Below are positions 23,715 to 36,431 of a DNA stretch of 50,941 nucleotides, piece after piece. The notes under the pieces are model-generated. The model made no database searches. It worked only from the letters and a program-made list of their open reading frames with translations, and was not told where the DNA came from. Origin of the DNA: an uncultured Candidatus Saccharibacteria bacterium (GTDB lineage Bacteria > Patescibacteriota > Saccharimonadia > Saccharimonadales > VXPC01); assembly GCA_964534605.1 (NCBI GenBank), contig CAZHOS010000003.1, forward strand, positions 1 to 50,941. Reading direction: 5' to 3'. Within the stretch, counting starts at the first letter, position 1, and each line of letters opens with the position of its first letter. The translations under genes were made by a program, and so were the position numbers.

Positions 23715-24644
23715 ATGCTAATACTCGCTCCAATGTATGATGTGACCGACACTGTCTTTCGGCAGATGGTGGCTTCTTGCGCCCCTCCGGACATGTTTAT
23801 GACCGAGTTTGTGAATGTTGATGGCCTGCAGAGCCCTGGGCGCCAACGCCTGCTGCACTTCTTAAAGCTTGAGGATACACACGATGTACCGGTTATTGCC
23901 CAGATATGGGGCAAAACACCCGAGAATTATTACAAAGTAGCCCAAGAGGTTGCCGACATGGGCTTCGACGGTATAGATATCAATACCGGCTGCCCCGACA
24001 AGACTATTACCAAAAACGGCTGCTGCTCGGCCTTTATACAGCCAGAAAACCGGCCGCTCTTCAAAGAGATATTGCAGGCTACTAAAGACGGCTCAAAGGG
24101 CTTGCCAGTAAGCGTAAAAACGCGCCTGGGCTGGGGCGAGACAGACTTTAGTTGGCATCAGATGGTGCTAGAGCAGGGCGTCAGCATGTTTAGCATCCAT
24201 GGCCGTACCAAGCGCGAGATGAGCAAGGTCCCAGTGCGCTGGGACGAAATAGTGCATATCCGTAAGCTACGTGATGATATTGCCCCAAACACCAAGATTA
24301 TTGGTAACGGTGACGTCCTGACCCGTCAACAGGCAGAAGAGTTACAGGCCAAGCATGGACTAGACGGTATTATGATTGGCCGCGGGGTCTTCCAGGATCC
24401 GTTTGTCTTTGCCAAGTCCAGCCCTTGGGCTGATTATCCTCGGTCCGAGAAGATAAAGCTGTTTATCAAGCATCTCGAGCTTTACCGCGACACCTACAGC
24501 AGCGGCGAGAGGCGCTTTGATCCCACTAAGAAGTTTATGAAGGTTTATATCAATGGTTTCGAGGGGGCTAGTGATATACGGGCTAAGGTTGCGGTTACTA
24601 AATCTGCTGATGAGGCTATCAATATCTTAAGACAGAGTCTCTAG
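23715..24644 (+). CDS. dus: tRNA-dihydrouridine synthase
   Basis: 309 aa. LAPMYDVTDTVFRQM, DINTGCP and a TIM-barrel length/pattern are typical of the Dus family. Confidence 0.9.
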   Translation: MLILAPMYDVTDTVFRQMVASCAPPDMFMTEFVNVDGLQSPGRQRLLHFLKLEDTHDVPVIAQIWGKTPENYYKVAQEVADMGFDGIDINTGCPDKTITKNGCCSAFIQPENRPLFKEILQATKDGSKGLPVSVKTRLGWGETDFSWHQMVLEQGVSMFSIHGRTKREMSKVPVRWDEIVHIRKLRDDIAPNTKIIGNGDVLTRQQAEELQAKHGLDGIMIGRGVFQDPFVFAKSSPWADYPRSEKIKLFIKHLELYRDTYSSGERRFDPTKKFMKVYINGFEGASDIRAKVAVTKSADEAINILRQSL

Positions 24645-24651
24645 AGGCTTA

Positions 24652-24773
24652 CGGGGAGGGACTCGCCCACGTTCCGCGGGCCCGAAACTTCGTTCATGGC
24701 AACAAGTTGTCAGAAGAAGGTTTCCTTGCAACATGCCACAGGCATGTTTCACCCCCGACCTCTAGTGTCAGAG
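24652..24773 (-). pseudogene. ghost copy of the 3' half of tRNA-fMet, split in the T-loop by an 85-nt insert
   Basis: On the minus strand:
- CTCtgACaCtaGAGGTCGGGGGT (24773-24751) matches the anticodon loop through T54, 17/23.
- An 85-nt insert follows.
- CGAGTCCCTCCCCG (24665-24652) matches C56 onward. Confidence 0.6.
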
Positions 24774-24793
24774 AACCAGAATCCTTGCCAAGA

Positions 24794-24835
24794 AACCAAG
24801 TAAAATACCCACATCTGTGGGTATTTTACTTGGTT
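24794..24835 (-). terminator. hairpin terminator that incorporates the tRNA ACCA end
   Basis: 18-bp perfect stem AACCAAGTAAAATACCCA / 6-nt loop / TGGGTATTTTACTTGGTT, followed by TTTCTT on the minus strand. Confidence 0.7.
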
Positions 24836-24905
24836 GCGGGGGAGGGACTCGAACCCCCGACCTCGTGGTTATGAGCCACGCGAGCTGCCGCTGCTCCACC
24901 CCGCG
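24831..24905 (-). tRNA. initiator tRNA-fMet (anticodon CAU)
   Basis: The 75-nt sequence CGCGGGGTGGAGCAGCGGCAGCTCGCGTGGCTCATAACCACGAGGTCGGGGGTTCGAGTCCCTCCCCCGCAACCA forms a cloverleaf. It has the C1xA72 mismatch and A11:U24 typical of bacterial initiators, and the CCA end is encoded. Confidence 0.9.
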
Positions 24906-24995
24906 ATATCTGCGCATAGAACTGACTGAGACGGCTCTATCGACTAGACTAATCTACAAGATTACGCAGTAGTTGTCAATCTAATAGTCTCGTTT

Positions 24996-25427
24996 TTAGC
25001 GTGTTAGGCTATCGCCAGAAAAGAAGCGCACCCACTCTTCGAGCGGCGTTGGTTGCTCGGCTTGCTCTACCGTAGCTTGGTCGTCTTGAAAAGAGCTGGA
25101 TATACGCTCTGTGGTTTGCTCTAGCGAGGACTGCTCTAGGATAACTAAGCTTTCGCCATCACCGATCAGGCCCAGCCTATCACGGGCAGACAAATCCTGA
25201 TAATACTCTGTTCTAAAAAACTCATTCTGCAGCTCTTGGGTATCCTTCTGGATACGCAACAATTCGATTTCTTGCTCGATGGTGCGGGACTCTTGTTCTA
25301 GGTCGTAGTTTAGGCTTATTTGATCAACGGTTTGCCATGTAATACCCAGCGATATAATCAGAAAGAACATTAGGTTAACGTTGCGCCGATCTGTAATAAT
25401 CGACCAGGCTTGTTTGGCTTTATCCAT
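24996..25427 (-). CDS. septum formation initiator (FtsB/DivIC-like)
   Basis: 143 aa. N-terminal TM segment (VNLMFFLIISLGITW), a coiled-coil and the conserved ...YQDLSARDRLGLIGDGESLVIL pattern. Confidence 0.75.
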   Translation of the reverse strand: MDKAKQAWSIITDRRNVNLMFFLIISLGITWQTVDQISLNYDLEQESRTIEQEIELLRIQKDTQELQNEFFRTEYYQDLSARDRLGLIGDGESLVILEQSSLEQTTERISSSFQDDQATVEQAEQPTPLEEWVRFFSGDSLTR

Positions 25428-25475
25428 AGCTATATCTTATAGCACGAACACCCTGCTGTTCAATCTACTGTTTTT

Positions 25476-25484
25476 TGCTATAAT
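25476..25484 (+). promoter_or_regulatory. extended -10 (TGcTATAAT) upstream of tRNA
   Basis: TGCTATAAT lies about 38 nt upstream of the tRNA 5' end. The same 9-mer occurs at 35933-35941. Confidence 0.4.
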
Positions 25485-25521
25485 CTACCTCTGTAGCAGA
25501 CAGCAATAGAGTTTTTTTGAT

Positions 25522-25597
25522 GGGGGTGTAGCTCAGGGGTTAGAGCAGTCGACTCATAATCGATTGGTCGCTGGTTCAATTCCAGCCACCCCCACCA
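25522..25597 (+). tRNA. elongator-type tRNA(CAU), probably tRNA-Ile2 (lysidine)
   Basis: The 76-nt sequence GGGGGTGTAGCTCAGGGGTTAGAGCAGTCGACTCATAATCGATTGGTCGCTGGTTCAATTCCAGCCACCCCCACCA forms a cloverleaf. Its D-arm, anticodon arm and variable/T-arm closely resemble E. coli ileX as I remember it. The Met versus Ile2 call needs a classifier. Confidence 0.9.
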
Positions 25598-25612
25598 AGA
25601 AAATTTTATCCA

Positions 25613-25715
25613 ATAAATCGATGGCTAATGACGCGGAACAAGCATGGGAGCTGCTGTCTCGCTACTGCGTCGTTCACTAAAGTTAACTCCTTACAATTCC
25701 AGCCACCCCCACCAA
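25613..25715 (+). pseudogene. ghost copy of the 3' half of the preceding tRNA(CAU), split in the T-loop by a 64-nt insert
   Basis: - ATAAaTCGATGGCTAAT (25613-25629) is a degenerate anticodon-loop to T-stem segment.
- The insert is 25630-25693.
- CAATTCCAGCCACCCCCACCAA (25694-25715) is 22/22 identical to 25577-25598. Confidence 0.6.
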
Positions 25716-25733
25716 AAGAACCTTAAACATTTT

Positions 25734-25742
25734 TGCTAGAAT
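25734..25742 (+). promoter_or_regulatory. extended -10 (TGcTAGAAT), near-leaderless start of the EamA gene
   Basis: TTTTGCTAGAATA ends 6 nt before ATG 25749. The same 13-mer precedes hrcA (48638-48650). Confidence 0.4.
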
Positions 25743-25748
25743 AGACCC

Positions 25749-26615
25749 ATGGATTGGTTGGTCGTAACTGTAATTGCTATTTTCTCAAGAGCTTTTTATT
25801 CAGTTTCTGTGAAGAGTATGAGCAGTAATGTAAAAGTTTCGGCCTCAATGCAGGCTGTATTATTAACACTATTAGCTGCACTTCTGACCCTACTGTTAGT
25901 CCCATTTCTGGGCTTCAGTACAGAAGGCATCTCTCAGAACTGGAAAATAATACTCGTGCTAGCGGTATCCCAGGGTGTTGGTAATGTGATCTATTTTAGG
26001 GGTCAAGAGCATCTTGATGCGGGCACCACTCAGGTTGCACTTTCTAGTATGCTTATATGGACAGCATTACTGTCTGCACTGTTTCTTGGATCTAGCTATA
26101 GTGTTCGGCAATATTTAGGGATGGTGTTACTTGGTATCTGCATACTTTTTGCAAACAGTCGAACCAAGGGCGCGGCAATCGCTGCCAAGGGGATTGCATA
26201 TATATTGGTGTCGGCAGTCGTGTTCTCTGTATTTGTGGTAGCTGGTGCAGATTTATCTAGTAAGATTAATATTGTTACGTATCTCCTTGCGACCTATTTA
26301 GGGGCTAGTATCTTTTCTATATTGGGTCTGCATAAAACCTTTAGAAGGGATGTAGGTTACCTCAAGGCCAATTTAACCCATTCAATTAAGAGCACATCTC
26401 TCGCCAGCATTACTTCTTTGCTCTATTTTATGCTTATATTTTACGCCTTCAGATTATCGCCTGATCCAGGCGTGGTCGCGGTTCTAGCTAATGCTCAAGT
26501 AGTCACAACGGTATTCGTAGCAGCTATATTGCTACAAGAAAGAGAACGGATTTTCAGAAAGTCCATATCTGCCTTAATTGTGCTTTTAGCCGCATATCTT
26601 ATATCAGGGGTTTAA
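25749..26615 (+). CDS. EamA/DMT-family transporter
   Basis: 288 aa with about 10 TM segments in two similar halves, the typical drug/metabolite transporter architecture. Confidence 0.8.
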   Translation: MDWLVVTVIAIFSRAFYSVSVKSMSSNVKVSASMQAVLLTLLAALLTLLLVPFLGFSTEGISQNWKIILVLAVSQGVGNVIYFRGQEHLDAGTTQVALSSMLIWTALLSALFLGSSYSVRQYLGMVLLGICILFANSRTKGAAIAAKGIAYILVSAVVFSVFVVAGADLSSKINIVTYLLATYLGASIFSILGLHKTFRRDVGYLKANLTHSIKSTSLASITSLLYFMLIFYAFRLSPDPGVVAVLANAQVVTTVFVAAILLQERERIFRKSISALIVLLAAYLISGV

Positions 26616-26623
26616 CTTTTACT

Positions 26624-28021
26624 CTAAGTACACTTTATGCGGCTACAGGCGATGCGAACGGCTTCGCTCCAGGTCGGGAAGGCATGGATGGTGTCATTGA
26701 TCTGTGAAGCCTTCATGCCGTGCTGCGCTGCAAGTGTTAGCTCGTGTAGCATTTCGCCAGCTCTTGGGGCGACAATACTGCCTCCCAGGACGACTCCGGT
26801 GTGGGAGGCCAACACCTTTACAAAGCCAGTCTTTTTGTGGCTGGTGTTGCTGCGCCCGATGATGCTAATTGGCACCTGGGATACCTGGTAGTCGATACCT
26901 TTGTCTTTTAGTTCTTGCTCGCTAGGACCAACGCTGGCGGCTTCTGGGCTGATAAATATACAGCGGGGGATGGCATGGTAGTCGGCGGCGATTTTTTTGC
27001 GGTGCCATAGGTTGTGGCCAACAAGTCGACTTTGATAAGTCGCTGTATGTGTAAACATGTACGGTCCGGTTACGTCACCAGCAACATAAATATGTGGATT
27101 AGAAGTCTGCATGTACTTGTTGGCATGGATGCTGCGCGCGTCGTATTTAACGCCAGCATTCTCGAGTCCTATATCTGTCATAGCACCCTTACCAGCAGCT
27201 AAAAGGACCTCTTGGACTATCGTCTTCTTCTGCTCGCCATCTAGCGTGTAGTGGACCTCTTTTTTGCCCTTTCTGGCAACGACTTTGGTGACCTGGGTAG
27301 AAGTGTGGACCTGAATGCCCTCTGACTCGAACACCGCACGCATTGTTTGACCGACCTCGGGGTCTTCTTTGGGTGCTAGCCGAGGGGCATATTCGGCAAT
27401 CTGTACTTTTGTGCCGAATGTAGCGAAGAACTGGCTAAACTCGCAGCCAATAGCTCCACCACCAATAACGAATAAACTGGTAGGTAGTTTCTTGAGCGAT
27501 ATCGCTTCGCGGTAGGTTATATAGCCCGCGTCTGCCAAGCCCTCGATCGACCGCGGTACGACGTTGTATGTGCCGGTAGCGATAAGGAATTTGTGGGCAC
27601 TGTAGCGCTTCTTGCCAACAGATACCGTCCAAGGGCTTAGAAAGTGTGCTTTGCCCTTGATGGAGGCTATCCCGGCGTCTTTGTATAGTTTTTTGCCTGC
27701 GTGCGTGCCTGTGTTGTATACAGCTTCGTCCTTCCACTGCATAATCTTTTGGAAGTTAAAGCTTACGCCTGTTGCACGGACGCCAAAGTGGGCAGCTTCG
27801 CGCTTGGCAACACGGTAAGTTTCAGCAGCTGTTAGTAAAGCTTTGGTAGGCACGCAGCCAAAGTTAGGGCATTCGCCCCCGATTGTATCGGCCTCGATGA
27901 CAGCGACTTTCTTGCCAGCGCGTGCTGACATGTTGGCAGCAACGTTGCCAGCAGGCCCAGAACCTATAACGATAAGGTCATAGTCTAGATGGCGTGGTTT
28001 TTTTGGTTTCTGGCTATGCAT
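26624..28021 (-). CDS. class I FAD-dependent pyridine nucleotide-disulfide oxidoreductase (Lpd/GR/MerA-like)
   Basis: 465 aa. Motifs: DLIVIGSGPAG (FAD), redox-active GGECPNFGCVPTK, VIGGGAIGCEFSQFF (NAD(P)) and the C-terminal HAFPTWSE interface motif. Confidence 0.85.
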   Translation of the reverse strand: MHSQKPKKPRHLDYDLIVIGSGPAGNVAANMSARAGKKVAVIEADTIGGECPNFGCVPTKALLTAAETYRVAKREAAHFGVRATGVSFNFQKIMQWKDEAVYNTGTHAGKKLYKDAGIASIKGKAHFLSPWTVSVGKKRYSAHKFLIATGTYNVVPRSIEGLADAGYITYREAISLKKLPTSLFVIGGGAIGCEFSQFFATFGTKVQIAEYAPRLAPKEDPEVGQTMRAVFESEGIQVHTSTQVTKVVARKGKKEVHYTLDGEQKKTIVQEVLLAAGKGAMTDIGLENAGVKYDARSIHANKYMQTSNPHIYVAGDVTGPYMFTHTATYQSRLVGHNLWHRKKIAADYHAIPRCIFISPEAASVGPSEQELKDKGIDYQVSQVPISIIGRSNTSHKKTGFVKVLASHTGVVLGGSIVAPRAGEMLHELTLAAQHGMKASQINDTIHAFPTWSEAVRIACSRIKCT

Positions 28022-28032
28022 GTTTGTTTCTC

Positions 28033-28302
28033 CTAATGTAATACTCGGTGGTGCAGGTACATGTACGCGGCATCCAAACTATAAGACTTTAGAGACTTAG
28101 TGGCTTGGGCGCGTATGTCGTTACTGGTGACCTCTTGTTTATCCTTGATCCAGGAGTTGACGTCAGCAGTGACCTCTTTGGCGACAATCTCGGCTGTACC
28201 AACAGGCACCATGACACTAAGGCAGATAGAGTAAATACTGGCGTATAGTTTACGCTCGTCATATGTTTCGGCATGTCCAGCCCGTTTTACGATATGCTTC
28301 AC
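28033..28302 (-). CDS. stand-alone ATP-cone domain protein
   Basis: 89 aa. MKHIVKRAGHAETYDERKLYASIY... matches the (V/I)KRdG..E.fd..Ki ATP-cone start. GTG start with GGGAG upstream. Confidence 0.7.
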   Translation of the reverse strand: MKHIVKRAGHAETYDERKLYASIYSICLSVMVPVGTAEIVAKEVTADVNSWIKDKQEVTSNDIRAQATKSLKSYSLDAAYMYLHHRVLH

Positions 28303-28326
28303 GCGGAATCTCCCATCAAAATACTC

Positions 28327-29031
28327 CTACCCAAAGTTTATTGTGCCGTTGGCAATTAGTATTAATATCCAACCCAGAGAAACCATCAGCAGCCCCATAA
28401 ACAGCCTCATGACACCCTTGCTTTCTTCTTTCCACTTGGCCACAGAGCTGATCTTTGTGCCACCAGCAACCATAAACAAGATCGCTACTAGCGGGGCAAC
28501 AAAGACAATGTTATATATAACCATCATACCAAGTGCCCAGGCGTTAAAGTTAACGCTTAAGATGTTAATAATGGCTAGGTAGGGTGCACCGGTACACGGT
28601 AGTTCGACTGCAGCTACGAATGCGCCCAGCATCATGACACCAAAAATAGACGTCTTGCTGGTGGACCAGTCGTGTATTTTGGCGGCGTATTTCTTGGGTA
28701 TTTGCAAGCTCATACCCTTGCCGTACCAGAAGTAATCCTTGATCTCTAAAACACCGGCCAGTATAACTAGCGAGCCAACAAATAGACTTAGATACTCTGC
28801 AAAAACAATCGGGATTTCTGACAGGAAGTAAACGAGACCTAGACCAGCCAGTAGGTAGGTAGCAAAGATAGCAAAGATGTATGCGCCGCCAACTGCAAGC
28901 AGACGCTTTGGGGATTGTCCGTTGCCCAGTACGACAGAAACCATGAGTATCAGAACACCGATGGCGCAGGGATTGATAGAGTCGATAGCGGCCGAGCCAA
29001 CAACGAGCGTGAGTGTCGGTAAATCTAACAT
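28327..29031 (-). CDS. CcdA/DsbD-type transmembrane thiol-disulfide electron transporter
   Basis: 234 aa with about 6 TM segments. Carries the two hallmark intramembrane Pro-Cys motifs (DSINPCAIGV and VELPCTGAPY). Confidence 0.8.
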   Translation of the reverse strand: MLDLPTLTLVVGSAAIDSINPCAIGVLILMVSVVLGNGQSPKRLLAVGGAYIFAIFATYLLAGLGLVYFLSEIPIVFAEYLSLFVGSLVILAGVLEIKDYFWYGKGMSLQIPKKYAAKIHDWSTSKTSIFGVMMLGAFVAAVELPCTGAPYLAIINILSVNFNAWALGMMVIYNIVFVAPLVAILFMVAGGTKISSVAKWKEESKGVMRLFMGLLMVSLGWILILIANGTINFG

Positions 29032-29035
29032 TGCC

Positions 29036-30247
29036 CTATGCCTCCTCGCCTAGCTTGATTGCTTCGCAGTCGAGGTCTTCGCCCAGAGCTACATTATGCT
29101 CGCAGCGTAGAACCTCTTGGTAGGTGTTGCAGTCTTCTGCAGGTACAACCAGGCCACCATCGTCCTTGAAGGTTGCGATCTCGACACCCGTTGGGTTGCC
29201 TTCGCTGTCGTAATATGCCGAGCAGTAGCTAGCCTGAGATTCGTAAGTGTTGCTATTAGTCGTTAGGGCAGTGCTGCTGGTGTAGTCGGTAACGTCTGTG
29301 ATGTCACACTGCTGGGCGTTAAATTCTGACAATCCAAACTCTGTACAGCGCACAGAATCCTTTAGACCGTATTGGTTGCAGAGTCGGTTGGTGAATTCTC
29401 TGGGCGTATCGAACTCAAAGATCACGCAGTCCCCAGGAGGTACATTAGGGTTATCGCTATATATGTAGTCGGCAGCTGAGGCCAGAGTAGTCGGGTTGTA
29501 GTCACCCGCCACATCTTGTTGCGGCAGGGTTACACCGGGCTCTAGTTTGTACTGCTGGTAAGTATCATCGTCTTCGTTAAACTGGTAGACAAACACCTGT
29601 AGTTCCGCAGGTTGCGTGCCACACAGTTGCCCGTTTTGCAGGTCTAATATTCGGCTACCGTCTTCGGCTGCTCCGACGTAGTCGTTAAGCTGGCTTAGGT
29701 TGGATGCGTCTACTTCGTCGCCATCAACATCGTCTTCTTCTATGCGCTCGTCATGGATTGGGATAACAATCCTGTTTTGTTCTAGGCTGCCGCCAATCGT
29801 GCTCATAAAGTTACCAATAGTTGCGTCTTCATCGAGGTCCACCACAACACCCTCCAGATGGATGCGCTTATCATCGTGCTCGTGCAGCACTGGACTGCCG
29901 ATCTTGTTGCTCAGGAATTGGAACGGATCGCGGAGCTCCACTTCGCTGCCGCAAGCCCAATACTCTATATCGGCGTGCCAGTGAACCGGCCCCCCAGAGT
30001 CAGAGACGACATTTAGATATACGGTAGAGCCTATGAGGAATATGGTCGAGCCAACTACGGTCGTAGCCATAGCTATAAAAAGAGGTAGCTTGGTGATAGG
30101 AAATCTGTCTTTTGTCTGCGATGCAATAATGATCAGTACGATCAGCACAATCGCCGACACGCCAACAGTCCGCAGTCCCCAGCTCGTAATCTGGCCTTCA
30201 AGGTTAGAGCTTGCAAATGTGAATATATCCACCTTGTCCCATTCCAC
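29036..30247 (-). CDS. membrane-anchored extracytoplasmic Cys-rich protein with HWH...HEHDD motif
   Basis: 403 aa with a GTG start and two N-terminal TM segments. VHWHADIEYWACG...SPVLHEHDDKRIHLEG resembles metal-binding modules often seen next to Dsb genes. About 10 Cys lie in the ectodomain, and there are acidic stretches. Confidence 0.65.
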   Translation of the reverse strand: MEWDKVDIFTFASSNLEGQITSWGLRTVGVSAIVLIVLIIIASQTKDRFPITKLPLFIAMATTVVGSTIFLIGSTVYLNVVSDSGGPVHWHADIEYWACGSEVELRDPFQFLSNKIGSPVLHEHDDKRIHLEGVVVDLDEDATIGNFMSTIGGSLEQNRIVIPIHDERIEEDDVDGDEVDASNLSQLNDYVGAAEDGSRILDLQNGQLCGTQPAELQVFVYQFNEDDDTYQQYKLEPGVTLPQQDVAGDYNPTTLASAADYIYSDNPNVPPGDCVIFEFDTPREFTNRLCNQYGLKDSVRCTEFGLSEFNAQQCDITDVTDYTSSTALTTNSNTYESQASYCSAYYDSEGNPTGVEIATFKDDGGLVVPAEDCNTYQEVLRCEHNVALGEDLDCEAIKLGEEA

Positions 30248-30362
30248 AGGATGCCTGCCAGCCCCTGTCTTTATGTTTTGCTTATGCAGTAATCCTACTA
30301 TACCATTAGCATTATAAAAAAGTATATTTTCGTTGATGCAAAAAGGGTGAGGAAATCAAGCG

Positions 30363-33263
30363 ATGAGCAGCAAAAAAACAAGGCAGGCCTACAGGTCTAC
30401 ATTCAAGGCAGTTATAGCTAGCCTGCAGACGGATGCTGACTCTGGCTTATCCTCAGCAGAGGCTGCTGCCCGGCTGGAGCAATACGGTCCAAATACACTC
30501 AAAGCCTCTAAAAGAATTCACCCCCTCAGGCTGTTTCTTAATCAATTTAAAGACGTGCTAGTTATTATTCTGCTGGTCGCAGCATTGGTGTCGTGGGGTG
30601 TCAGCCTTATACATACCGACTCGTCGCAATCTGCCAGTCATGACCAACAGATATTGGCTGCCTTAGCCTGCGATAGACTGACGGCAGACTTTAGAGACAC
30701 AGATCGGTTCTGTGGCCAACCATCAACGATCTGTGGCACGGAATATGACGGTCCGGTTAGCGAGTACTGCGAGGGAGCCGAAGAATCCGAAGGTGCCCAG
30801 GAGGCATTATTGATATTCGCCATCGTTATCGCCATCGCCGTTATCGGTTTCTTTAACGAGTACAGGGCCGAGAAAACAGTCGAAGCTCTTAAGAAGCTTG
30901 TCGGTCAAAAAGCAACAATTAAACGAGCCGGCAAGGTGGTCGAGGTCGACGCCTCCGATATCGTCCCCGGCGACATCATAATTCTAGAAGAAGGCATGAA
31001 GGTCCCGGCTGATATTCGACTAGGTAAGGTTAGTAGCCTCTATATTAACGAAGCCAGCTTGACTGGCGAGAGTCTGCCTGTCGGCAAGAACACCCTAACT
31101 CTTAAGCAGACTAAACCGCTTGGGGACCAGAAGTCTATGGCTTTCGCCGGAACCCATGTTACGCAGGGCACGGCCGAAGGTGTCGTCGTAGCCACGGCGC
31201 AAGAGACGGAGCTAGGCAAGATTGCCAGCCTCGTTAACGAGGTCGAGGAGGCCCAAACACCTATGCAGCGTAAGCTTGATGAGCTCGGGCGCAAGCTTGG
31301 CTTCTTTGTGCTGCTTACATGTGTCGTAGTCTTTATTATAGTTCTATTGTTTGTTGACGAGGCTCAGGACGGGTCTTTCTTAGTCCGGGCGATCTTTGCC
31401 TTTACGGCTGCAGTCGCACTGGCTGTGGCTGCAATCCCCGAAGGCCTAGCTTTTGTTGTGCGTATTAGTTTGGCGTTGGGCGCGCGCCGTATGGCGCTTA
31501 AGAACGCCCTTGTGCGCAAGCTAAGTGCTGTCGAAGCTCTTGGCTCAACCGACGTTATATGCTCTGACAAAACAGGTACGCTAACTAGAGGAGAGATGAC
31601 CGTCCGCTCTGTTTATGCTGCCGATCAAGTCTATAGCGTGAGTGGCACTGGCTATAGCCTGGCTGGCAATGTGATGCAGGGCGCCAAAAAGCTGTTGACC
31701 AAGAGGCTCCCCAAAGCAGTTGAGCTCACCCTGCGCACTGGTACACTTTGCAACAACGCACATATAAAGAACGATGGCATTATTGGCGATCCAACCGAAG
31801 GAGCACTGCTCGTAGCAGCTGCCAAAGCGGGCTTAGATCACGATCAACTCAATAGTAGCTTCGACCGTGTCCACGAGGTACCCTTCACCTCAGAACGCAA
31901 GCGCATGTCTGTTGCCTGCCGTGGCAAAGACGGTTTTTCTGCTTACAGCAAAGGCGCAACAGAAAGTGTCCTAGAGCTCTGCACGCACATCCAGACAAGG
32001 AATGGCCGCAAAAAAATAACCGACAAAGACAAGCAAGCCATAATGGACATGAATAGCAAGCTAGCCTCAAAAGCGCTACGCGTATTGGCTTTTGCTCAAA
32101 AAGATATGGCTGCTCGACCAAAAACCAATAGCGAAATCGAGCGTGGCTTGACGTTTGTTGGCCTGCAAGCAATGATGGACCCTCCTAGGACCGAGGTTAA
32201 AGAGGTTGTCCACCGCGTCCAGGCCGAGAGCGGCATTAGAGTGGTCATGATAACCGGCGACTATATCGAGACAGCCAAGGCAGTTGCGGCCGAGATCGGG
32301 CTGGAAGGCGAGGCGCTCTCGGGCGTAGACATAGATGCTATGAGCCACGAAGAGTTCGAAGATAGAGTAGAGCATACCAGTGTTTATGCCCGTGTTAACC
32401 CCGAGCATAAAATCCGTATCGTCAAGGCCCTTAAGGCCCACGGACATCAAGTAGCTATGACCGGCGACGGCGTTAACGATGCTCCAGCCATAAAAGCCGC
32501 CGATATCGGTATCGCTATGGGTATAACAGGCACAGACGCCAGTAAGGAAGCGGCTGATCTTATACTGCTGGACGATCAATTCCTGACTATAATTGGGGCG
32601 ATCGAAGAGGGGCGAGGGATATTCGATAACGTACGCAAGTTTGTGAACTTCCTTATATCCTGCAACATAGCCGAGGTCCTGGCGGTGCTAGTTGGTATAC
32701 TGGTTTTTAACGACCTGATACTAACTGCAGCCCAGCTGTTATTTATTAACATTGTCACAGATGGATTGCCGGCAGTTGCACTTGGCTCTGACCCTGCCCA
32801 GAGCGACTCCTTGCAGCAGAAGCCTCAACACTACCAAGAATCCATACTCAATAAGCGTACCTGGGTGGAGATAACAACTTTTGGCGTGCTGATGACAATT
32901 GCCGTTATTGGGCATTATTGGTACAACATCAATAACTACTCAGCCGCTGCAGCAGCATCAGGTGCTTTCACAGCTTTAGTTGTTTACCAGCTTGTTAGAT
33001 TAGTAGATATCCGCACAGACTACGCCATAAGATGGTTTAGCAATCCTTGGCTAAGCGTTGCAATGCTTAGCAGTATCGCTCTGCAGTTTGTGGTCCTATA
33101 CTTTAGCCCTGTTGCCGAGTACTTCGGAGTAGTGCCTCTGCGCTTGCACGATTGGGTGATTATCGCCGTTGGCAGCGCAGTTCTATTTGTAGCCATGAAG
33201 GCTCTCAACCCCCTATTTGACTATCTGGGTCCCGAAGCCAAAGTTGCTCGGCAAGCAAAATAA
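30363..33263 (+). CDS. P-type (P2/Ca2+- or Mg2+-type) cation-transporting ATPase
   Basis: 966 aa. Motifs: TGES, the phosphorylation motif ICSDKTGTLT, MITGD, and TGDGVNDAPAIKAADIGIAMG. N-terminal Cation_ATPase_N-like GLSSAEAAARLEQYGPN. Confidence 0.9.
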   Translation: MSSKKTRQAYRSTFKAVIASLQTDADSGLSSAEAAARLEQYGPNTLKASKRIHPLRLFLNQFKDVLVIILLVAALVSWGVSLIHTDSSQSASHDQQILAALACDRLTADFRDTDRFCGQPSTICGTEYDGPVSEYCEGAEESEGAQEALLIFAIVIAIAVIGFFNEYRAEKTVEALKKLVGQKATIKRAGKVVEVDASDIVPGDIIILEEGMKVPADIRLGKVSSLYINEASLTGESLPVGKNTLTLKQTKPLGDQKSMAFAGTHVTQGTAEGVVVATAQETELGKIASLVNEVEEAQTPMQRKLDELGRKLGFFVLLTCVVVFIIVLLFVDEAQDGSFLVRAIFAFTAAVALAVAAIPEGLAFVVRISLALGARRMALKNALVRKLSAVEALGSTDVICSDKTGTLTRGEMTVRSVYAADQVYSVSGTGYSLAGNVMQGAKKLLTKRLPKAVELTLRTGTLCNNAHIKNDGIIGDPTEGALLVAAAKAGLDHDQLNSSFDRVHEVPFTSERKRMSVACRGKDGFSAYSKGATESVLELCTHIQTRNGRKKITDKDKQAIMDMNSKLASKALRVLAFAQKDMAARPKTNSEIERGLTFVGLQAMMDPPRTEVKEVVHRVQAESGIRVVMITGDYIETAKAVAAEIGLEGEALSGVDIDAMSHEEFEDRVEHTSVYARVNPEHKIRIVKALKAHGHQVAMTGDGVNDAPAIKAADIGIAMGITGTDASKEAADLILLDDQFLTIIGAIEEGRGIFDNVRKFVNFLISCNIAEVLAVLVGILVFNDLILTAAQLLFINIVTDGLPAVALGSDPAQSDSLQQKPQHYQESILNKRTWVEITTFGVLMTIAVIGHYWYNINNYSAAAAASGAFTALVVYQLVRLVDIRTDYAIRWFSNPWLSVAMLSSIALQFVVLYFSPVAEYFGVVPLRLHDWVIIAVGSAVLFVAMKALNPLFDYLGPEAKVARQAK

Positions 33264-33288
33264 GGCCTAATATCAAAACATAAGCTTA

Positions 33289-33316
33289 TTGACATTTTAG
33301 CAATTATGTGTATAAT
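33289..33316 (+). promoter_or_regulatory. near-consensus sigma70-type promoter
   Basis: TTGACA (33289-33294), a 16-nt spacer, then TATAAT (33311-33316). Confidence 0.6.
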
Positions 33317-33384
33317 AGTGCATGTTAGTGATCACAAACAAACATTACAAAAATAAAATAAATAGAACTTTAGGAGTCATAAGA

Positions 33385-33558
33385 ATGGCACTACTAAAAA
33401 AGCGAAAGTCAGAACCTAAGCAATCTAAAGATAATAAGTCGACACAGCAGTCGGCAAGAAGCGATGACAGCACAGGTAAGTCCCAGCAGGACGAAGCCAA
33501 AGCACTTCTAGAGGCAGCTCAGCTTAAAGAAGATGCCGGTCAATGTGCATTCTGCTAA
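33385..33558 (+). CDS. small Lys/Gln-rich hypothetical protein ending CAFC
   Basis: TAGGAG lies 8 nt before ATG 33385 (the ORF opens at 33322). 57 aa, low complexity, C-terminus GQCAFC. Confidence 0.5.
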   Translation: MALLKKRKSEPKQSKDNKSTQQSARSDDSTGKSQQDEAKALLEAAQLKEDAGQCAFC

Positions 33559-33681
33559 ATCTTAGTTCGTACAGATAACTGCTAAGTTTTAGGGAAGGAA
33601 TAGATGTCACAGTTTGAAGTCTCAAAGACTAATAATATTGTCATAAGATTTATCGATACAGTATTCGGTTAAACAATAACT

Positions 33682-33812
33682 AGAGCCTGGCAAAACTCAG
33701 CGGATGAAAAGCGAAAAAGGCCCAGCACGTATGTTTTTCGCTCATCGGATGAGTCTTGTCAGGCTCTTATGGTCAGTCGGTGCACCCCATGTATGGGGTG
33801 TTACCTTTTTTG
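33682..33812 (+). ncRNA. candidate small RNA: 86-nt extended hairpin plus terminator
   Basis: - Outer arms AGAGCCTGGCAAAACTCA / TGAGTCTTGTCAGGCTCT pair at 16 of 18 positions.
- Inner stem is GCGAAAAA / TTTTTCGC.
- Next comes CACCCCA-TGTA-TGGGGTG followed by a T-tract (33783-33812). Confidence 0.35.
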
Positions 33813-33877
33813 GTGTCCGGAGTATTCGAAAAAATCACATCGTGTTAAAATAAGCATAAATAATATAACCAAAAAAA

Positions 33878-35902
33878 GTGGGCATGGAAGAGAACTCGAG
33901 CAATACACCGGACGTTTCAAGCAAAAAGGTGATACAGCCTTTGGCTAGTTCGGCCGATAGTGCCCCTAAGGCGACAAGCCCTCCGCCTGTCGATCCAAAA
34001 AAGGTAGATGTCTCTAATTTGGACCCAGACCTACAACAGATGATAAAAGAAGCCGAAAAGGGGCGCCCTAGCCGACCTAGACTGCAGCAAAAACACGCCT
34101 TTCCAACTGACAAGCCCCAAGACTCCGGCGCCAAGATAATCGACGCCAATAAAAAAGCTAAGTCTAAGGGCGGTGTTGCTAGTATCTTTACAACACAGCT
34201 CAAATCGATTCTCCACGAGAAGCACGTTACAACGGACATGACCCTGGAGCAGATAGAGAGCAAGGTTGGCAGAGAAAATATGCAGGCCTCTAGCGAGGCG
34301 GACCCAGCTCCTCAGCCAAAATCAGAGCCAGAGCAAAAACCAAAAACAGAGCCAGTGGCCAAACCTGCCGAAGTAGTTGGCGACACCCCCTTGCAGCCGG
34401 CGCCAGCGCCTGCGCCCGCTCTTACGTCAGAAATTGACTCATCTGGGGACCACCACGACGGAGAAGCCGACGAGAAGCAAGCAGCTACAGCCGTTAAAAA
34501 GACCAAGAAAAAGAAGAAGATAAAACCCGGGCGTAAATTCTTCCTAGCTTGCATCGGCATCTTGGCTCTCGCCTTGATAGCTGTAGGTGTGTGGGCTTTT
34601 CTTTTTAGATCAACTGAAGAGCCAGTCGATCAAACGACGCAGCAGCAAGAGGAAATCGTTGCAACCGTGCAGTCTATCGAGGCGGCTAGGCCCATCGAAA
34701 ACTTACAGTACACAAGTGACGAAGGTCAGTCTTGGCGGGATCTGGACGAACTAATAACCATCGAAGAAGGCTACTGGATTAGGACTGGCGAGAGGCAAGA
34801 GGAAGAGTCTTTTAGCACAATACTGCTTGGCGATGGCAGTCAGGTGCGCTTTGACAGCGAAACGACGGTAGAGTTTAATGCTGCTTCGTCTGAGGGGGTT
34901 TCGCTCGCTCTGCAGTCGGGCCGAGTATATGTTCGTGTAGCCAGTGCGCAGGACCGCAGCTTTATGGTCAACACACGCTCGATGATCTTGGACGCGACTG
35001 GCACCGCCTTTATTGCCTCTAGCTCTATAGCCGAGGATAGGTTGGAGGTTTACGAAGGTGCCGTCATTGAGGGCAACCAGAATCTTAGCTTTACACAGGG
35101 CCAAGGCCTAACTATCGAAAATGCCGAGAACCTCGTAGAGGTAATAGATCTTGATGTAGCGGAGTACGGACAAGACGAGTTCGTACTCTGGAACAGAGAA
35201 CAAGATATAGCTTCTAGCTTGTTCGCGGACTCGCTTGGTATTTTGGATGACATAGAACCTCCCGAGCTAACAATCAGCTCCCCAGCAAATGATGCTGTTA
35301 TTGTGACTGACCCGGCTGTAGCTACAACAACAATTGAGTTTACGGGCACATCCGAGGCCGGTGCTCAGATAACTGTTAGTGAGGGTGATGTTACCGAAAC
35401 AGTCAATGCAGACGCTCAGGGCGAGTTCACAGTCATCCTTGGAACAGAGGCTCAGCCTGGTCCGGGGCAGCCAATCGAGTTAACTTACCAGGTGGTTGCC
35501 AGTGATAGCCGCGGCAATGAGACGTCTCAGCAAGTAGGGGTGATTCTGGAGTCTCCAGAAGTCGAAGAGTCGATTACACTTGCTGCTGTAGCTACTCCCG
35601 GTGTCGGAGTAATCCTTAACTGGACACTTAGCGAGAACTTTACTCCTGCCCAAGGCCTGCAAATCGTATGGGACACATCTAGTGGACCGACCTATCCCAT
35701 CCAAAGTTCTGGAGGTGTTGGGAATTGCAATATGGATAGTGGCAGCGTCATACCTGCTGGCAATACATCTGCCCAGATTTGTCTACAAGACGGGCGGACG
35801 TACTTTATCCGCGCTTGCCGGTTTATAGCCCAGTCAAACAGTTGCGACCTATACAGTAACGAGATCGAGATCCAGGCCCCAACCGGTGGCACAGACTCCT
35901 AG
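33878..35902 (+). CDS. membrane-anchored protein with FecR-like and Ig-like domains
   Basis: 674 aa. Lys/Pro-rich cytoplasmic N-terminus and one TM segment (FFLACIGILALALIAVGVWAFLF). FecR-like segment IRTGE...LLGDGSQVRFDSETTVEF...SGRVYVRV, then a bacterial Ig-like stretch. Confidence 0.7.
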   Translation: MGMEENSSNTPDVSSKKVIQPLASSADSAPKATSPPPVDPKKVDVSNLDPDLQQMIKEAEKGRPSRPRLQQKHAFPTDKPQDSGAKIIDANKKAKSKGGVASIFTTQLKSILHEKHVTTDMTLEQIESKVGRENMQASSEADPAPQPKSEPEQKPKTEPVAKPAEVVGDTPLQPAPAPAPALTSEIDSSGDHHDGEADEKQAATAVKKTKKKKKIKPGRKFFLACIGILALALIAVGVWAFLFRSTEEPVDQTTQQQEEIVATVQSIEAARPIENLQYTSDEGQSWRDLDELITIEEGYWIRTGERQEEESFSTILLGDGSQVRFDSETTVEFNAASSEGVSLALQSGRVYVRVASAQDRSFMVNTRSMILDATGTAFIASSSIAEDRLEVYEGAVIEGNQNLSFTQGQGLTIENAENLVEVIDLDVAEYGQDEFVLWNREQDIASSLFADSLGILDDIEPPELTISSPANDAVIVTDPAVATTTIEFTGTSEAGAQITVSEGDVTETVNADAQGEFTVILGTEAQPGPGQPIELTYQVVASDSRGNETSQQVGVILESPEVEESITLAAVATPGVGVILNWTLSENFTPAQGLQIVWDTSSGPTYPIQSSGGVGNCNMDSGSVIPAGNTSAQICLQDGRTYFIRACRFIAQSNSCDLYSNEIEIQAPTGGTDS

Positions 35903-35932
35903 TTGGCAGGGTTTTAATCTTTAATATTTTTC

Positions 35933-35941
35933 TGCTATAAT
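35933..35941 (+). promoter_or_regulatory. extended -10 (TGcTATAAT) for the tRNA leader transcript
   Basis: Same 9-mer as upstream of the other plus-strand tRNA; lies about 210 nt upstream of the tRNA. Confidence 0.45.
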
Positions 35942-35965
35942 CCACCCCTGTTGAAAAGAGACCAT

Positions 35966-36143
35966 CACACATTTGGCGGTCGTCATCGACTAGCAAAAGA
36001 AAACCGTGGTTTTCTTCCCTCGGCATCAAACCAAGAATCTCTGATTCTGTTTGAGGATGAGAGAGGAGTAGCGATGATCTGCCAAGATGTGTTGTTCTGC
36101 TACTTGTTTGCAGGACCACACATTTGGTGGTCGTCATCGACTA
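35966..36143 (+). promoter_or_regulatory. structured leader with two direct copies and one inverted copy of a 27-nt repeat
   Basis: R1 is CACACATTTGGCGGTCGTCATCGACTA (35966-35992). R2 is the same with one change (36117-36143). An inverted, degenerate copy GAGTAGCGATGATCTGCCAAGATGTG lies at about 36066-36091. Confidence 0.4.
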
Positions 36144-36149
36144 CGACGA

Positions 36150-36226
36150 GGCGGTATAGCTCAGCTGGTTAGAGCGCAGGACTCATAAGCCTGAGGTCAG
36201 TGGTTCAAGTCCACTTACCGCTACCA
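36150..36226 (+). tRNA. elongator-type tRNA(CAU), probably tRNA-Met
   Basis: The 77-nt sequence GGCGGTATAGCTCAGCTGGTTAGAGCGCAGGACTCATAAGCCTGAGGTCAGTGGTTCAAGTCCACTTACCGCTACCA forms a cloverleaf. It has G1-U72 and an A31-G39 mismatch. Met versus Ile2 is not resolvable by eye. Confidence 0.9.
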
Positions 36227-36227
36227 G

Positions 36228-36260
36228 AAAAAGTTCATCTAAAAGGTGAGCTTTTTTGTT
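36228..36260 (+). terminator. rho-independent terminator of the tRNA
   Basis: AAAAAGTTCATC / TAAAA / GGTGAGCTTTTT (with G-U pairs), followed by TTGTTTG. Confidence 0.75.
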
Positions 36261-36262
36261 TG

Positions 36263-36368
36263 ATAAGCCTGAGTTTAGTGGTGACGGCGACCAAACAGGG
36301 GGCTGCTGTCGCCTATTCTGCCGTTCTTGAAAGCAAGAGCTCTTTACAAGTCCACTTACCTCTACCAA
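36263..36368 (+). pseudogene. ghost copy of the 3' half of the preceding tRNA(CAU), split in the T-loop by a 64-nt insert
   Basis: - ATAAGCCTGAGtttAGTGGT (36263-36282) matches tRNA positions 35-54 at 17 of 20.
- The insert is 36283-36346.
- CAAGTCCACTTACCtCTACCA (36347-36367) is 20/21 identical to 36206-36226. Confidence 0.65.
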
Positions 36369-36431
36369 TAAAATAAATCTAAGAAGGTGAATTTTTTTAA
36401 TCGGGGTGATAGCGATGCTAGACTTAAGGCG

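What the first reader, a model, noticed from the sequence alone, without database searches (positions are those of the whole stretch)
24652..36368. All three tRNA(CAU) genes are trailed by a ghost copy of their own 3' half, broken exactly in the T-loop
The only tRNA genes I can find are 24831-24905 (minus), 25522-25597 (plus) and 36150-36226 (plus).

Each is followed on its own strand, within about 15-60 nt, by a second copy of only the 3' half of that tRNA. The copy starts inside the anticodon loop and runs to T54. It is then interrupted by 64-85 nt of unrelated sequence and resumes at C56 through the acceptor 3' strand and a CCA-like end.
- fMet: 24773-24751 / 85-nt insert / 24665-24652.
- Ile2-like: 25613-25629 / 64-nt insert / 25694-25715 (22/22 identical to the tRNA).
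- Met-like: 36263-36282 / 64-nt insert / 36347-36367 (20/21).

The break point (T54 | C56) is the same in all three.

Established knowledge: tyrosine-recombinase elements integrate in the anticodon loop or T-loop of tRNA genes and displace the host 3' fragment. A nested anticodon-loop plus T-loop integration history could generate this architecture. However, no integrase or island remains, the units are tiny, and the pattern is 3 of 3.

Alternatives are a functional tRNA-like RNA (decoy, mimic or processing signal) or an uncharacterised T-loop-targeting mini-element.
Basis: partly seen in the sequence, partly recalled or inferred. Interest (0 to 1): 0.8.

Follow-up and report, generated by a model that had tools for sequence, protein, structure and literature searches.

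The report
T-loop-targeting mini-elements beside tRNA genes
The "ghost" tRNA halves are real: they are partial tRNA copies split at the T-loop by small, folded, gene-less insertions, one of which belongs to a large uncatalogued mobile family found beside every kind of tRNA in Saccharibacteria-like bacteria.

Summary
All three tRNA(CAU) genes are followed by a same-strand partial copy of their own 3' part, interrupted in the T-loop. Five of the six repeat pieces beat 2000 shuffles.

The pattern is not CAU-specific. The 86-nt insert in the fMet ghost (24665-24750, minus) belongs to a family I call "I". It is about 90 nt long and forms three hairpins in a four-way junction closed by the T-stem. 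Covariation is very strong. Rfam 15 has no match.

I found 8 copies in 85 Saccharimonadales loci and 155 in 118 metagenome loci. They lie beside tRNAs of 13 isotypes, always in the tRNA's orientation, inserted after GGT of the T-loop. Occasional copies sit in a D-loop, and eight sit nested in the H3 hairpin of another I copy. I-bearing copies are fragments lying next to an intact tRNA.

The 64-nt inserts of the other two ghosts are homologous to each other but could not be linked to I.

Best reading: site-specific, gene-less mini-elements, with the ghosts as displaced or duplicated tRNA ends. The enzyme that moves them is unknown. Large serine recombinases that abut tRNA genes in related loci are candidates. 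Rivals are a host-functional RNA and ordinary integrase scars.

The parts
24831..24905 (-). tRNA-fMet (CAU) gene
   Evidence: ARAGORN; Rfam tRNA 59.9 bits
24796..24833 (-). Terminator-like hairpin that includes the CCA end (CCAAGTAAAATACCCAC...GTGGGTATTTTACTTGG)
   Evidence: Read from the sequence. The same tRNA-terminator layout is seen in relatives.
24767..24787 (-). Degenerate inverted copy of the T-arm (segment b, CAAGGATTCTGGTTCTCTGAC)
   Evidence: Sequence. Equivalent and clearer inverted T-arm copies occur in L006, L015, L084 and L040. Enriched over a cross-locus control in 15/47 units.
24751..24762 (-). Ghost 5' piece: variable loop + T-stem 5' strand + T54 (GAGGTCGGGGGT, 12/12 identical to the tRNA)
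   Evidence: 0/2000 shuffles
24665..24750 (-). Insert I: three hairpins H1-H3. A member of the large I family.
   Evidence: cmsearch 140.1 bits, E = 2e-37 over 24646-24787. nhmmer family profile E = 1.9e-21 over 24663-24751. Covariation.
24652..24665 (-). Ghost 3' piece: T-loop 3' part + T-stem 3' strand + start of the acceptor strand. 13/13 identical, then a 1-nt deletion and decay.
25522..25597 (+).
   Evidence: 74.1 bits
25612..25628 (+). Putative ghost 5' piece (AATAAATCGATGGCTAA). The similarity is weak.
   Evidence: Not significant alone (374/2000 shuffles). Supported only by its position just before the insert.
25629..25693 (+). 64-65-nt insert (I-64), homologous to the insert at 36282-36346
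   Evidence: nhmmer E = 6.6e-16. Single-sequence fold z = -0.4. Not detected by the I models.
25694..25715 (+). Ghost 3' piece, C56 to CCA(+A), 21/21 identical
36150..36226 (+).
   Evidence: 67.9 bits. tilS assigned from the PP-loop domain.
36227..36262 (+). Terminator-like hairpin 1
   Evidence: Sequence. Not called by the simple terminator scan.
36263..36282 (+). Ghost 5' piece, A35 to T54 (ATAAGCCTGAGTTTAGTGGT)
   Evidence: 0/2000 shuffles
36283..36346 (+). 64-nt insert (I-64)
   Evidence: nhmmer E = 2.2e-15. Fold z = -1.3.
36347..36367 (+). Ghost 3' piece, C56 to CCA, 20/21 identical
36368..36403 (+). Diverged second copy of the terminator, showing that the duplication extends beyond the tRNA
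   Evidence: Direct comparison of the two trailers

Best explanation
Each ghost is a partial copy of the neighbouring tRNA gene that carries a small, folded, gene-less insertion in its T-loop.

**What the fMet insert is.** It is a member of a widespread family, I. The family is about 90 nt long and starts GA(G/A)AA right after T54. It has hairpins H1, H2 and H3, and the end of H3 abuts T55/C56. I behaves as a site-specific mobile unit that lands after GGT in the motif GGT^T(C). That motif occurs in T-loops, in D-loops and in I's own H3 5' strand.

**Why ghosts sit beside intact genes.** These bacteria carry single-copy tRNA genes, so an insertion in the only functional copy would be lethal. 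The element is therefore only seen in a redundant fragment next to an intact gene. Two stereotyped layouts occur:
- (a) intact tRNA, terminator, about 40 nt, variable loop plus T-stem 5' strand, I, then T55 to CCA;
- (b) the tRNA 5' part up to T54, I, T55-C62, about 44 nt, then the intact tRNA.

**Most likely mechanism (inferred).** The unit that integrates at a tRNA is a roughly 200-bp cassette. It consists of I plus a replacement tRNA end with its own terminator or promoter. It recombines in the T-loop, restores the gene and displaces the old end, which becomes the ghost. This follows the logic of tRNA-targeting integrative elements, but in miniature and without any gene. The recombinase would act in trans. 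tRNA-abutting large serine recombinases seen in related loci are candidates.

**The other two ghosts.** Those at 25612-25715 and 36263-36367 are head-to-tail partial duplications starting at A35. They carry a different 64-nt insert at the same T-loop position. By analogy I read them the same way, with less support.

**Shown versus inferred.** Shown: the repeats, the family, its structure, its target position, its multiplicity and its nesting. Inferred: the cassette model, lethality as the filter, and the enzyme.
For: **Repeats.** Real in the window.

**Structure of I.**
- Six Saccharimonadales fMet units share a fold with compensatory changes at 22 of 37 pairs.
- In 130 aligned copies, 95.2% of cells pair versus 74.6% in shuffles. 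Cells with changes on both sides number 821 versus 230. Slid-partner controls give at most 50% pairing and at most 124 such cells.

**Multiplicity and host range.**
- 8 copies in 85 Saccharimonadales loci.
- 155 copies in 118 loci by profile search, next to 13 tRNA isotypes, always on the tRNA's strand.
- Layout counts: 54 in layout a and 39 in layout b, with narrow spacing (67-92 nt and 41-50 nt).

**Target position.**
- A D-loop insertion in a decayed tRNA copy just upstream of the intact tRNA, L051 12679-12818.
- Eight nested I-in-I insertions, all at model position about 71, with no duplication. An identical 87-nt inner copy lies in two different outer copies, L158 and L233.

**Evidence for a cassette.**
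- In most layout-a units the repeat ends sharply at the CCA end (29 of 54 are 20-30 nt; only 5 extend 54-120 nt into the terminator).
- Arrays occur at one tRNA, for example L184 with tRNA-Lys, an I unit and then an F2-type unit.
- The ghost and the functional tRNA-Gln copy in L155 have different anticodon-stem sequences.
- Distribution is patchy on a Dus tree.

**Candidate recombinases and related displacement.**
- Large serine recombinase genes lie convergent with tRNA 3' ends in L083, L258, L200, L231 and L071.
- A 3.7-kb islet sits between tRNA-fMet and an uninterrupted ghost in L056.

**No local helper or known family.**
- No conserved ORF accompanies I.
- No integrase or transposase domain was found in 28 window ORFs.
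- Rfam has no match.
Against: - The cassette model does not by itself explain the nested insertions of I alone, so at least two modes of movement are needed.
- No enzyme was linked to I. Serine recombinases are next to only 4 of 118 metagenome loci, and none is in the window.
- Copies at different tRNAs within one contig are strongly diverged yet keep their hairpins. I looks better preserved than the ghost tRNA parts and spacers. That suggests selection on resident copies, i.e. a function, rather than pure parasitism.
- Only 3 pairs of near-identical copies in different contexts were found, so recent transposition is rare.
- The 64-nt inserts of two of the three window ghosts could not be tied to I or to any other copy outside the window. 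Their folds are not significant.
- The inverted T-arm segment b is enriched but not universal, and its role is unexplained.
- The taxonomy of the metagenome contigs is only indirectly supported.
Confidence: 0.55

Rival explanations
1. I is a host-functional (or element-encoded but functional) structured RNA. It would be made from tRNA-linked units, and its tRNA-derived flanks, together with the antisense T-arm segment, would serve as guide, decoy, processing signal or sensor for the cognate tRNA.
For: - Very strong covariation, plus one G.U pair in H3 conserved in 106 of 116 copies, which shows strand specificity.
- I is always co-oriented with the tRNA.
- I is better preserved than the adjacent ghost tRNA parts and spacers in tRNA-Gln units of different contigs.
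- The spacing is stereotyped.
- An antisense T-arm copy able to pair with both flanks of I is enriched.
- In relatives, ghosts often end in CCA followed by their own terminator.
Against: - Presence is patchy among related species. In the 80 dus loci the exact T-loop/T-stem 9-mer recurs downstream of 6/37 fMet, 3/49 and 2/16 tRNAs.
- Self-nested copies and D-loop copies look parasitic.
- No promoter-like site was found for the window ghosts, and a terminator lies between tRNA and ghost.
- G.U pairs are otherwise rare, about 2% of cells (derived). This fits folded DNA at least as well as RNA.
- The acceptor tail decays in several units, including the window's own, L009 and L051.
Confidence: 0.2
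2. The ghosts are ordinary att scars of conventional integrase-bearing islands or prophages that integrated in tRNA genes and then decayed. The inserts would be leftover element arms, as in the reader's nested-integration history.
For: - L056 has a 3.7-kb islet (TOTE primase-helicase plus Fic) flanked by roughly 95-bp repeats of the tRNA-fMet 3' end plus terminator.
- Uninterrupted 3' ghosts occur in L052, L258 and L174.
- Large serine recombinases lie next to tRNAs.
- A 15-nt anticodon-loop repeat lies beside a non-CAU tRNA in L083.
- The second and third window ghosts start at A35, a classical crossover sublocation (established knowledge: the Williams 2002 classification, recalled from memory).
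Against: - Random decay would not leave the same 90-nt covarying unit at the same nucleotide in more than 160 places, next to 13 tRNA isotypes.
- It would not produce D-loop or self-nested copies.
- No integrase or cargo lies inside any of the small units.
- It would require exact deletion of each element's interior three times in one window.
Confidence: 0.12
3. I inserts alone as single-stranded DNA, in the manner of a PATE (a small non-autonomous IS200/IS605 derivative), into the T-loop of the working tRNA gene at the replication fork. The direct-inverted-direct copies of the tRNA 3' end would then arise in the same event by template switching at the T-arm and terminator hairpins. Only such rescued products would survive.
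For: - No terminal inverted repeats and no target duplication.
- A fixed orientation and a fixed short 5' target (GGT).
- Hairpins near both ends, and nesting of I alone.
- An inverted T-arm/tRNA 3' copy between the real gene and the ghost.
- Few G.U pairs.
Against: - H1 and H3 are unlike each other, whereas IS200/IS605 ends normally share one hairpin type (recalled from memory).
- No Y1 transposase was seen.
- Repeats mostly stop at the CCA end instead of including the terminator, which a local template switch would copy.
- The ghost differs from the resident tRNA in L155.
Confidence: 0.1

Closest known systems
tRNA-targeting integrative elements and their gene-less derivatives (genomic islands, prophages, cis-mobilisable elements flanked by att sites)
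   Same: - Integration inside the T-loop or anticodon loop of a tRNA gene.
- The gene is restored by a copy of its end carried on the element.
- The displaced end remains as a direct repeat.
- Several units can accrete at one tRNA.
- One kb-scale example (L056) and recombinase genes next to tRNAs exist in relatives.
   Different: - The units here are about 150-250 bp and carry no gene at all.
- The repeat is split by a conserved folded 64-110-nt module exactly at T54/T55.
- The same module serves at least 13 different tRNA species.
- The module also inserts alone into D-loops and into itself.
IS200/IS605-derived palindrome-associated elements and REP/BIME-type small repeats
   Same: - Small, non-coding and multi-copy.
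- No terminal inverted repeats and no target duplication.
- Hairpins maintained by covariation.
- Orientation-specific insertion 3' of a short fixed sequence.
- Dependent on an enzyme supplied in trans.
   Different: - The two end hairpins are dissimilar.
- The target lies inside tRNA loops.
- Insertions are accompanied by tRNA-end duplications.
- No Y1 transposase or RAYT (REP-associated tyrosine transposase) was identified.
Non-canonical tRNA introns (archaeal bulge-helix-bulge introns in D- and T-loops; bacterial group I introns in anticodon loops)
   Same: A structured insertion at a precise nucleotide of a tRNA loop, in the tRNA's orientation. D-loop and T-loop positions are both used.
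   Different: - Removing I restores a tRNA in only 2 of 124 cases, so the carriers are fragments.
- No bulge-helix-bulge motif is evident.
- I is far too small for a group I core.
- An intact, uninterrupted gene usually lies alongside.
IS110/IS1111-type site-specific elements that use RNA guides or target hairpins
   Same: - Precise, orientation-specific insertion into conserved structured sequences.
- A non-coding structured RNA or DNA module is essential to the element.
- Sense and antisense copies of the target lie next to the module.
   Different: - No DEDD recombinase gene.
- I lacks the large internal guide loops of bridge RNAs.
- The antisense segment is continuous, lies outside I and is not universal.

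Membership tests
tRNA-targeting integrative element (integrase island or prophage) | Direct repeat of the tRNA segment running from a crossover in the anticodon loop or T-loop to the 3' end | tested here: met
   - Window repeats.
- Repeats start at T55 (22±1 nt from the 3' end) in 47/54 layout-a units.
tRNA-targeting integrative element (integrase island or prophage) | Integrase or recombinase gene inside the element, next to an att site | tested here: not met
   - There is no ORF inside the 100-190-nt units.
- No recombinase domain in 28 window ORFs.
- No serine recombinase homolog in the window.
- No conserved neighbouring ORF in 118 loci.
tRNA-targeting integrative element (integrase island or prophage) | The displaced repeat (attR) is contiguous, with the element body lying between the two repeats | tested here: not met
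   - The ghosts are split at T54/T55 by the insert.
- Only L056, L052, L258 and L174 show contiguous ghosts.
MITE (miniature inverted-repeat transposable element) | Terminal inverted repeats and a target-site duplication | tested here: not met
   - In the consensus the ends TGAGAA... and ...GTGACC are not inverted copies of each other.
- The flanks GGT | (T)CGA show no duplication.
MITE (miniature inverted-repeat transposable element) | Short, non-coding, multi-copy | tested here: met
   - 155 copies in 600 kb of metagenome loci, with up to 3-4 per locus.
- The only recurrent ORFs are antisense artefacts.
IS200/IS605-type single-strand element (PATE) | Orientation-specific insertion 3' of a fixed short target, without duplication | tested here: met
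   - The left flank ends in GG(T) in T-loops, in a D-loop and in H3.
- Caveat: the metagenome pattern itself required GGTGA, so the unbiased support comes from the second copies and the Saccharimonadales copies.
IS200/IS605-type single-strand element (PATE) | Similar subterminal hairpins at both ends, and a Y1 (HUH) transposase in the genome | tested here: inconclusive
   - H1 and H3 both exist but differ in sequence and loop.
- The presence of a transposase could not be examined without whole genomes.
tRNA intron (group I, or bulge-helix-bulge type) | Removal of the insert restores a complete tRNA, and the interrupted gene is the functional copy | tested here: not met
   - In-silico deletion restores a tRNA in 2 of 124 cases.
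- 93 of 125 full-length copies have an intact same-strand tRNA within 200 nt.
Any Rfam 15 family (ribozymes, riboswitches, known sRNAs, omega-RNA-like motifs) | A covariance-model match | tested here: not met
   No match overlapping any insert, even at E <= 10 on short stretches.
Element mobilised by a large serine recombinase | A cognate serine recombinase acting on the T-loop site with a 2-nt crossover | not testable with these tools
   Only association is available: the genes abut tRNA 3' ends in L083, L258, L200, L231 and L071.

The most novel reading that the evidence does not exclude
I is a new class of protein-gene-less, self-structured mobile element, or a ribozyme-like 'T-loop intron-transposon'. 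Its targeting of individual tRNA genes would be directed by nucleic-acid pairing. The antisense T-arm copy next to it would act as a splint or guide spanning the T54/T55 insertion point, so one universal scaffold could be reprogrammed for every tRNA species.
Probability: 0.12. Interest if true: 0.92.

Novelty: new variant of a known kind. Interest (0 to 1): 0.72.

Why it matters
- **Annotation.** Partial tRNA copies beside tRNA genes in Saccharibacteria, and probably other candidate-phyla bacteria, are usually dismissed as integrase scars or annotation noise. Here they mark a very abundant, sharply defined structured element that current RNA and mobile-element catalogues lack. That affects tRNA annotation in these genomes.
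- **A clean target-specificity system.** The element gives a compact case of one nucleotide position in a universal RNA-gene motif being targeted.
- **An open mechanistic question.** It is unclear how a 90-nt element with no gene moves and why its fold is kept. If the fold acts as RNA, or guides targeting, it would be a new mechanism. If it is a hitchhiker on serine recombinases, it defines their natural minimal substrates.

Tried and rejected
- **Rfam.** Searches at gathering and permissive thresholds, on the window, on L040 and on five short metagenome loci, found nothing for any insert.
- **First genome scan.** A scan with a single Pyr_redox protein found no relatives. The second scan, with a Dus alignment, worked.
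- **Viral contigs.** A scan for the H3/T-loop junction motif gave 58 hits, all chance matches in coding DNA.
- **BLASTN.** Searching with the window units found almost nothing. Profile and covariance models were needed.
- **Intron hypothesis.** Rejected by in-silico splicing.
- **Small antisense ORF.** The 23-aa reading frame opposite I-64 is not conserved between the two copies (manual check).
- **SD-like motif.** The CTCCTTA (anti-Shine-Dalgarno-like) end of I-64 recurs in L081 and L056, but I could not interpret it.
- **Linked protein.** The search for a protein linked to I gave only antisense-ORF artefacts.
- **Linking other inserts to I.** Attempts to tie the 64-nt inserts and the F2, I2 and I3 insert types to I failed, with both nhmmer and the covariance model.
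- **Taxonomy.** A protein-database search on a metagenome contig protein timed out.
- **Literature.** Six full-text searches found no description of such an element. PMC9897764 covers tRNA gene fragments in general; I saw only its listing.
- **Hairpin-opening origin of segment b.** Rejected, because segment b copies an uninterrupted T-arm rather than the I-bearing one.
Full report
**1. What is in the window**

The window is a chromosomal stretch of a Saccharimonadales (Saccharibacteria/TM7) bacterium.
- Its dihydrouridine synthase is up to 78% identical to proteins named Patescibacteria or Saccharibacteria.
- The neighbouring genes are housekeeping genes: dus, divIC, an EamA transporter, tilS, ftsH, aspS, murJ, lepA and hrcA.

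**2. Checking the observation**

- Local alignment finds the 3' end of each tRNA again downstream on the same strand: 13/13, 21/21 and 20/21 identities.
- Against 2000 shuffles of the 250 nt downstream, all three 3' pieces and two of the three 5' pieces are never matched. Upstream controls stay at background.
- The 5' piece of the second ghost (25613-25629) is not significant on its own.
- The fMet 5' piece is 12 nt, GAGGTCGGGGGT, at 24762-24751. It starts in the variable loop, not the anticodon loop.
- The ghost of the third tRNA starts at A35, directly after the tRNA's terminator hairpin, and is followed by a diverged second copy of that terminator. It is therefore a head-to-tail duplication of A35 through the terminator.
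- The two 64-nt inserts are homologous to each other.

**3. Relatives**

I fetched eighty dus loci from one genome per species.
- They hold 113 tRNAs, of which 107 are CAU. The three CAU genes therefore cluster near dus throughout this order, which is why the window shows only CAU tRNAs.
- Ghosts recur downstream, and never upstream, of a minority of these tRNAs.
- They are scattered over a Dus tree rather than clustered in one clade.
- Reading them shows a common plan. In order: the tRNA, a terminator hairpin, often a degenerate inverted copy of the T-arm, the variable loop plus T-stem 5' strand, a hairpin-rich insert, the rest of the T-loop with the T-stem 3' strand and acceptor strand (often ending in CCA), and often a second terminator.
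- Several insert types exist. The window's fMet insert groups with those of L005, L009, L028, L051 and L064.

**4. The insert is a structured family**

- An alignment of those six units folds into a four-way junction. The T-stem closes three hairpins, and 22 of 37 pairs show compensatory changes.
- A covariance model built from it scores the window copy at 140 bits.
- The model also finds two further copies in the dus loci. One, in L064, has only an antisense tRNA-fMet 3' end on its left. The other, in L051, sits in the D-loop (after GCTCAGTGG, before AGAGCA) of a decayed tRNA copy lying just upstream of the intact gene.
- In these loci the element lies next to Leu, Gln, Val, Arg, Lys, Pro, Ser, His, Glu, Gly, Ile, Thr and Ala tRNAs, among others, always on the tRNA's strand.
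- On 130 aligned copies, 95.2% of pair cells are standard pairs versus 74.6% in shuffles. Cells changed on both sides number 821 versus 230. Sliding the partners drops pairing to 26-50%. One G.U pair in H3 is nearly invariant.
- Rfam 15 has no match for any copy.
- Six literature searches found nothing comparable.

**5. How the element sits**

A profile search finds 155 copies in 118 loci, of which 125 are full length.
- Layout a (54 copies): an intact tRNA lies 67-92 nt upstream. The sequence after I repeats the tRNA from T55 onward, usually for 20-30 nt and so exactly to the CCA end. In five cases it continues 54-120 nt into the terminator.
- Layout b (39 copies): the tRNA 5' part up to T54 precedes I, T55-C62 follows it, and an intact tRNA with the same anticodon starts 41-50 nt later. 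The promoter region is sometimes duplicated too.
- Deleting I in silico restores a tRNA in only 2 of 124 cases, so the carriers are fragments, not intron-containing genes.
- Eight copies are nested in another I, always at model position about 71, in the H3 5' strand CGGGGT^C, which resembles the T-loop site CGGGGT^TC. These nested copies have no flanking duplication. One identical 87-nt inner copy lies in two different outer copies.
- Near-identical copies in unrelated contexts are otherwise rare: 3 pairs.
- No conserved protein gene accompanies I. The only recurrent ORFs are antisense translations of I itself.

**6. Evidence on mechanism**

- The repeat's sharp end at CCA, and the different terminators after tRNA and ghost, are what an element carrying its own replacement tRNA end would leave.
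- Arrays fit repeated integration into the working T-loop, each event pushing older units outward. An example is tRNA-Lys followed by an I unit and then an F2-type unit in L184.
- In L155 the ghost and the working tRNA-Gln differ in the anticodon-stem sequence, which suggests one part came from elsewhere.
- Ordinary displacement also occurs in this lineage. L056 has a 3.7-kb TOTE primase-helicase plus Fic islet between tRNA-fMet and an uninterrupted ghost with a copy of the terminator.
- Uninterrupted ghosts follow tRNA-Gln in L258 and L174.
- Large serine recombinase genes abut tRNA 3' ends in L083, L258, L200, L231 and L071.
- None of this identifies the enzyme that moves I.
- The window has no recombinase among 28 ORFs scanned, and no serine recombinase homolog.
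- The inverted T-arm segment is enriched (15 of 47 layout-a units exceed the 95th percentile of a cross-locus control) but it is not universal. Its role is open.

**7. Interpretation**

- *Best reading (confidence about 0.55).* The ghosts are the displaced or duplicated tRNA ends of tiny, gene-less, T-loop-specific mobile units. I is the conserved core of one such family, and the 64-nt inserts form a second, so far window-only, type.
- *What is shown.* The repeats, the family, its fold, its target position, its multiplicity, its nesting and its independence from anticodon.
- *What is inferred.* The cassette model, lethality as the filter that leaves only fragment-borne copies, and a trans-acting recombinase.
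- *Main rival (about 0.2): a functional RNA.* Resident copies keep their hairpins while diverging in sequence, and they look better preserved than the ghost tRNA parts and spacers. Against it stand the patchy presence, the self-nesting, the lack of a promoter and the scarcity of G.U pairs.
- *Other rivals.* Plain decayed integrase scars (about 0.12) cannot explain the conserved unit at one nucleotide position in more than 160 places. A single-strand transposon with template-switch rescue (about 0.1) fits the end features and the inverted copies, but not the sharp repeat boundary.

**8. Limits**

- Two of the three window ghosts carry inserts that I could not link to anything outside the window. 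Their predicted folds are not significant.
- The metagenome pattern required GGTGA at the left junction, so the target-site claim rests mainly on second copies in those loci and on the Saccharimonadales copies.
- The taxonomy of the metagenome contigs is only indirectly supported: 30 loci share proteins, at up to 73% identity, with the Saccharimonadales loci. A direct database search failed.
- Only the neighbourhoods of hits were available, never whole genomes.

Noticed in passing
L056:10247-13975: A 3.7-kb islet lies between tRNA-fMet and an uninterrupted 25-nt ghost plus a copy of the terminator (roughly 95-bp direct repeats). It encodes a TOTE-type archaeo-eukaryotic primase-helicase (707 aa) and a Fic protein (350 aa). 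It has no integrase.
   Followed up: partly
L083:17706-19289; L258:312-1850; L200:46-1503; L231:285-596; L071:13148-14008: Large serine recombinase genes lie convergent with tRNA genes. In L083, L258, L200 and L231 they run right up to the tRNA 3' end; in L071 the gene is about 640 nt downstream of the tRNA. This suggests tRNA-targeting serine integrases in Saccharibacteria.
   Followed up: partly
window 36150-37319: The third tRNA(CAU) lies directly upstream of tilS. From my memory of E. coli ileX, it resembles tRNA-Ile2 more than the 25522 gene does. Not tool-verified.
   Followed up: no
80 dus loci (L001-L080) and window 23715-25597: The dus / tRNA-fMet / divIC / second tRNA(CAU) neighbourhood is conserved across Saccharimonadales. 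107 of the 113 tRNAs within 10 kb of dus are CAU tRNAs.
   Followed up: partly
L184 (downstream of tRNA-Lys 579-654, minus strand): Two successive ghost units follow one tRNA-Lys. The first carries I. The second carries a different, F2-type insert (TTCGGTGG...ATGTGCGCTG). The same F2-type insert also occurs after tRNA-fMet in L006, L060, L062, L069 and L077.
   Followed up: partly
window 25680-25693; L081 about 10965-10985; L056 about 10395-10415: The 3' end of the 64-nt insert, (G)TTAACTCCTTACA, recurs in two places: downstream of the orthologous tRNA in the closest relative (L081, as GTTACCTCCTTACAA), and inside the left end of the L056 islet. It resembles the anti-Shine-Dalgarno end of 16S rRNA. 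Its meaning is unknown.
   Followed up: no
L083:12800-12998 (minus strand): An 87-nt non-CAU tRNA (ARAGORN calls it Asp-GTC; it is probably a long-arm tRNA) is followed about 95 nt downstream by an exact 15-nt repeat of its anticodon loop and stem, CTCGTCAAGTTGGTT.
   Followed up: no
L081:11860-12620: In the contig of the closest relative, composition switches abruptly to GC-rich coding sequence right after a ghost-like inverted T-arm motif (CAAGATTCTGAACCTGCGAC). This may be an assembly chimera or a foreign insertion at that repeat.
   Followed up: no
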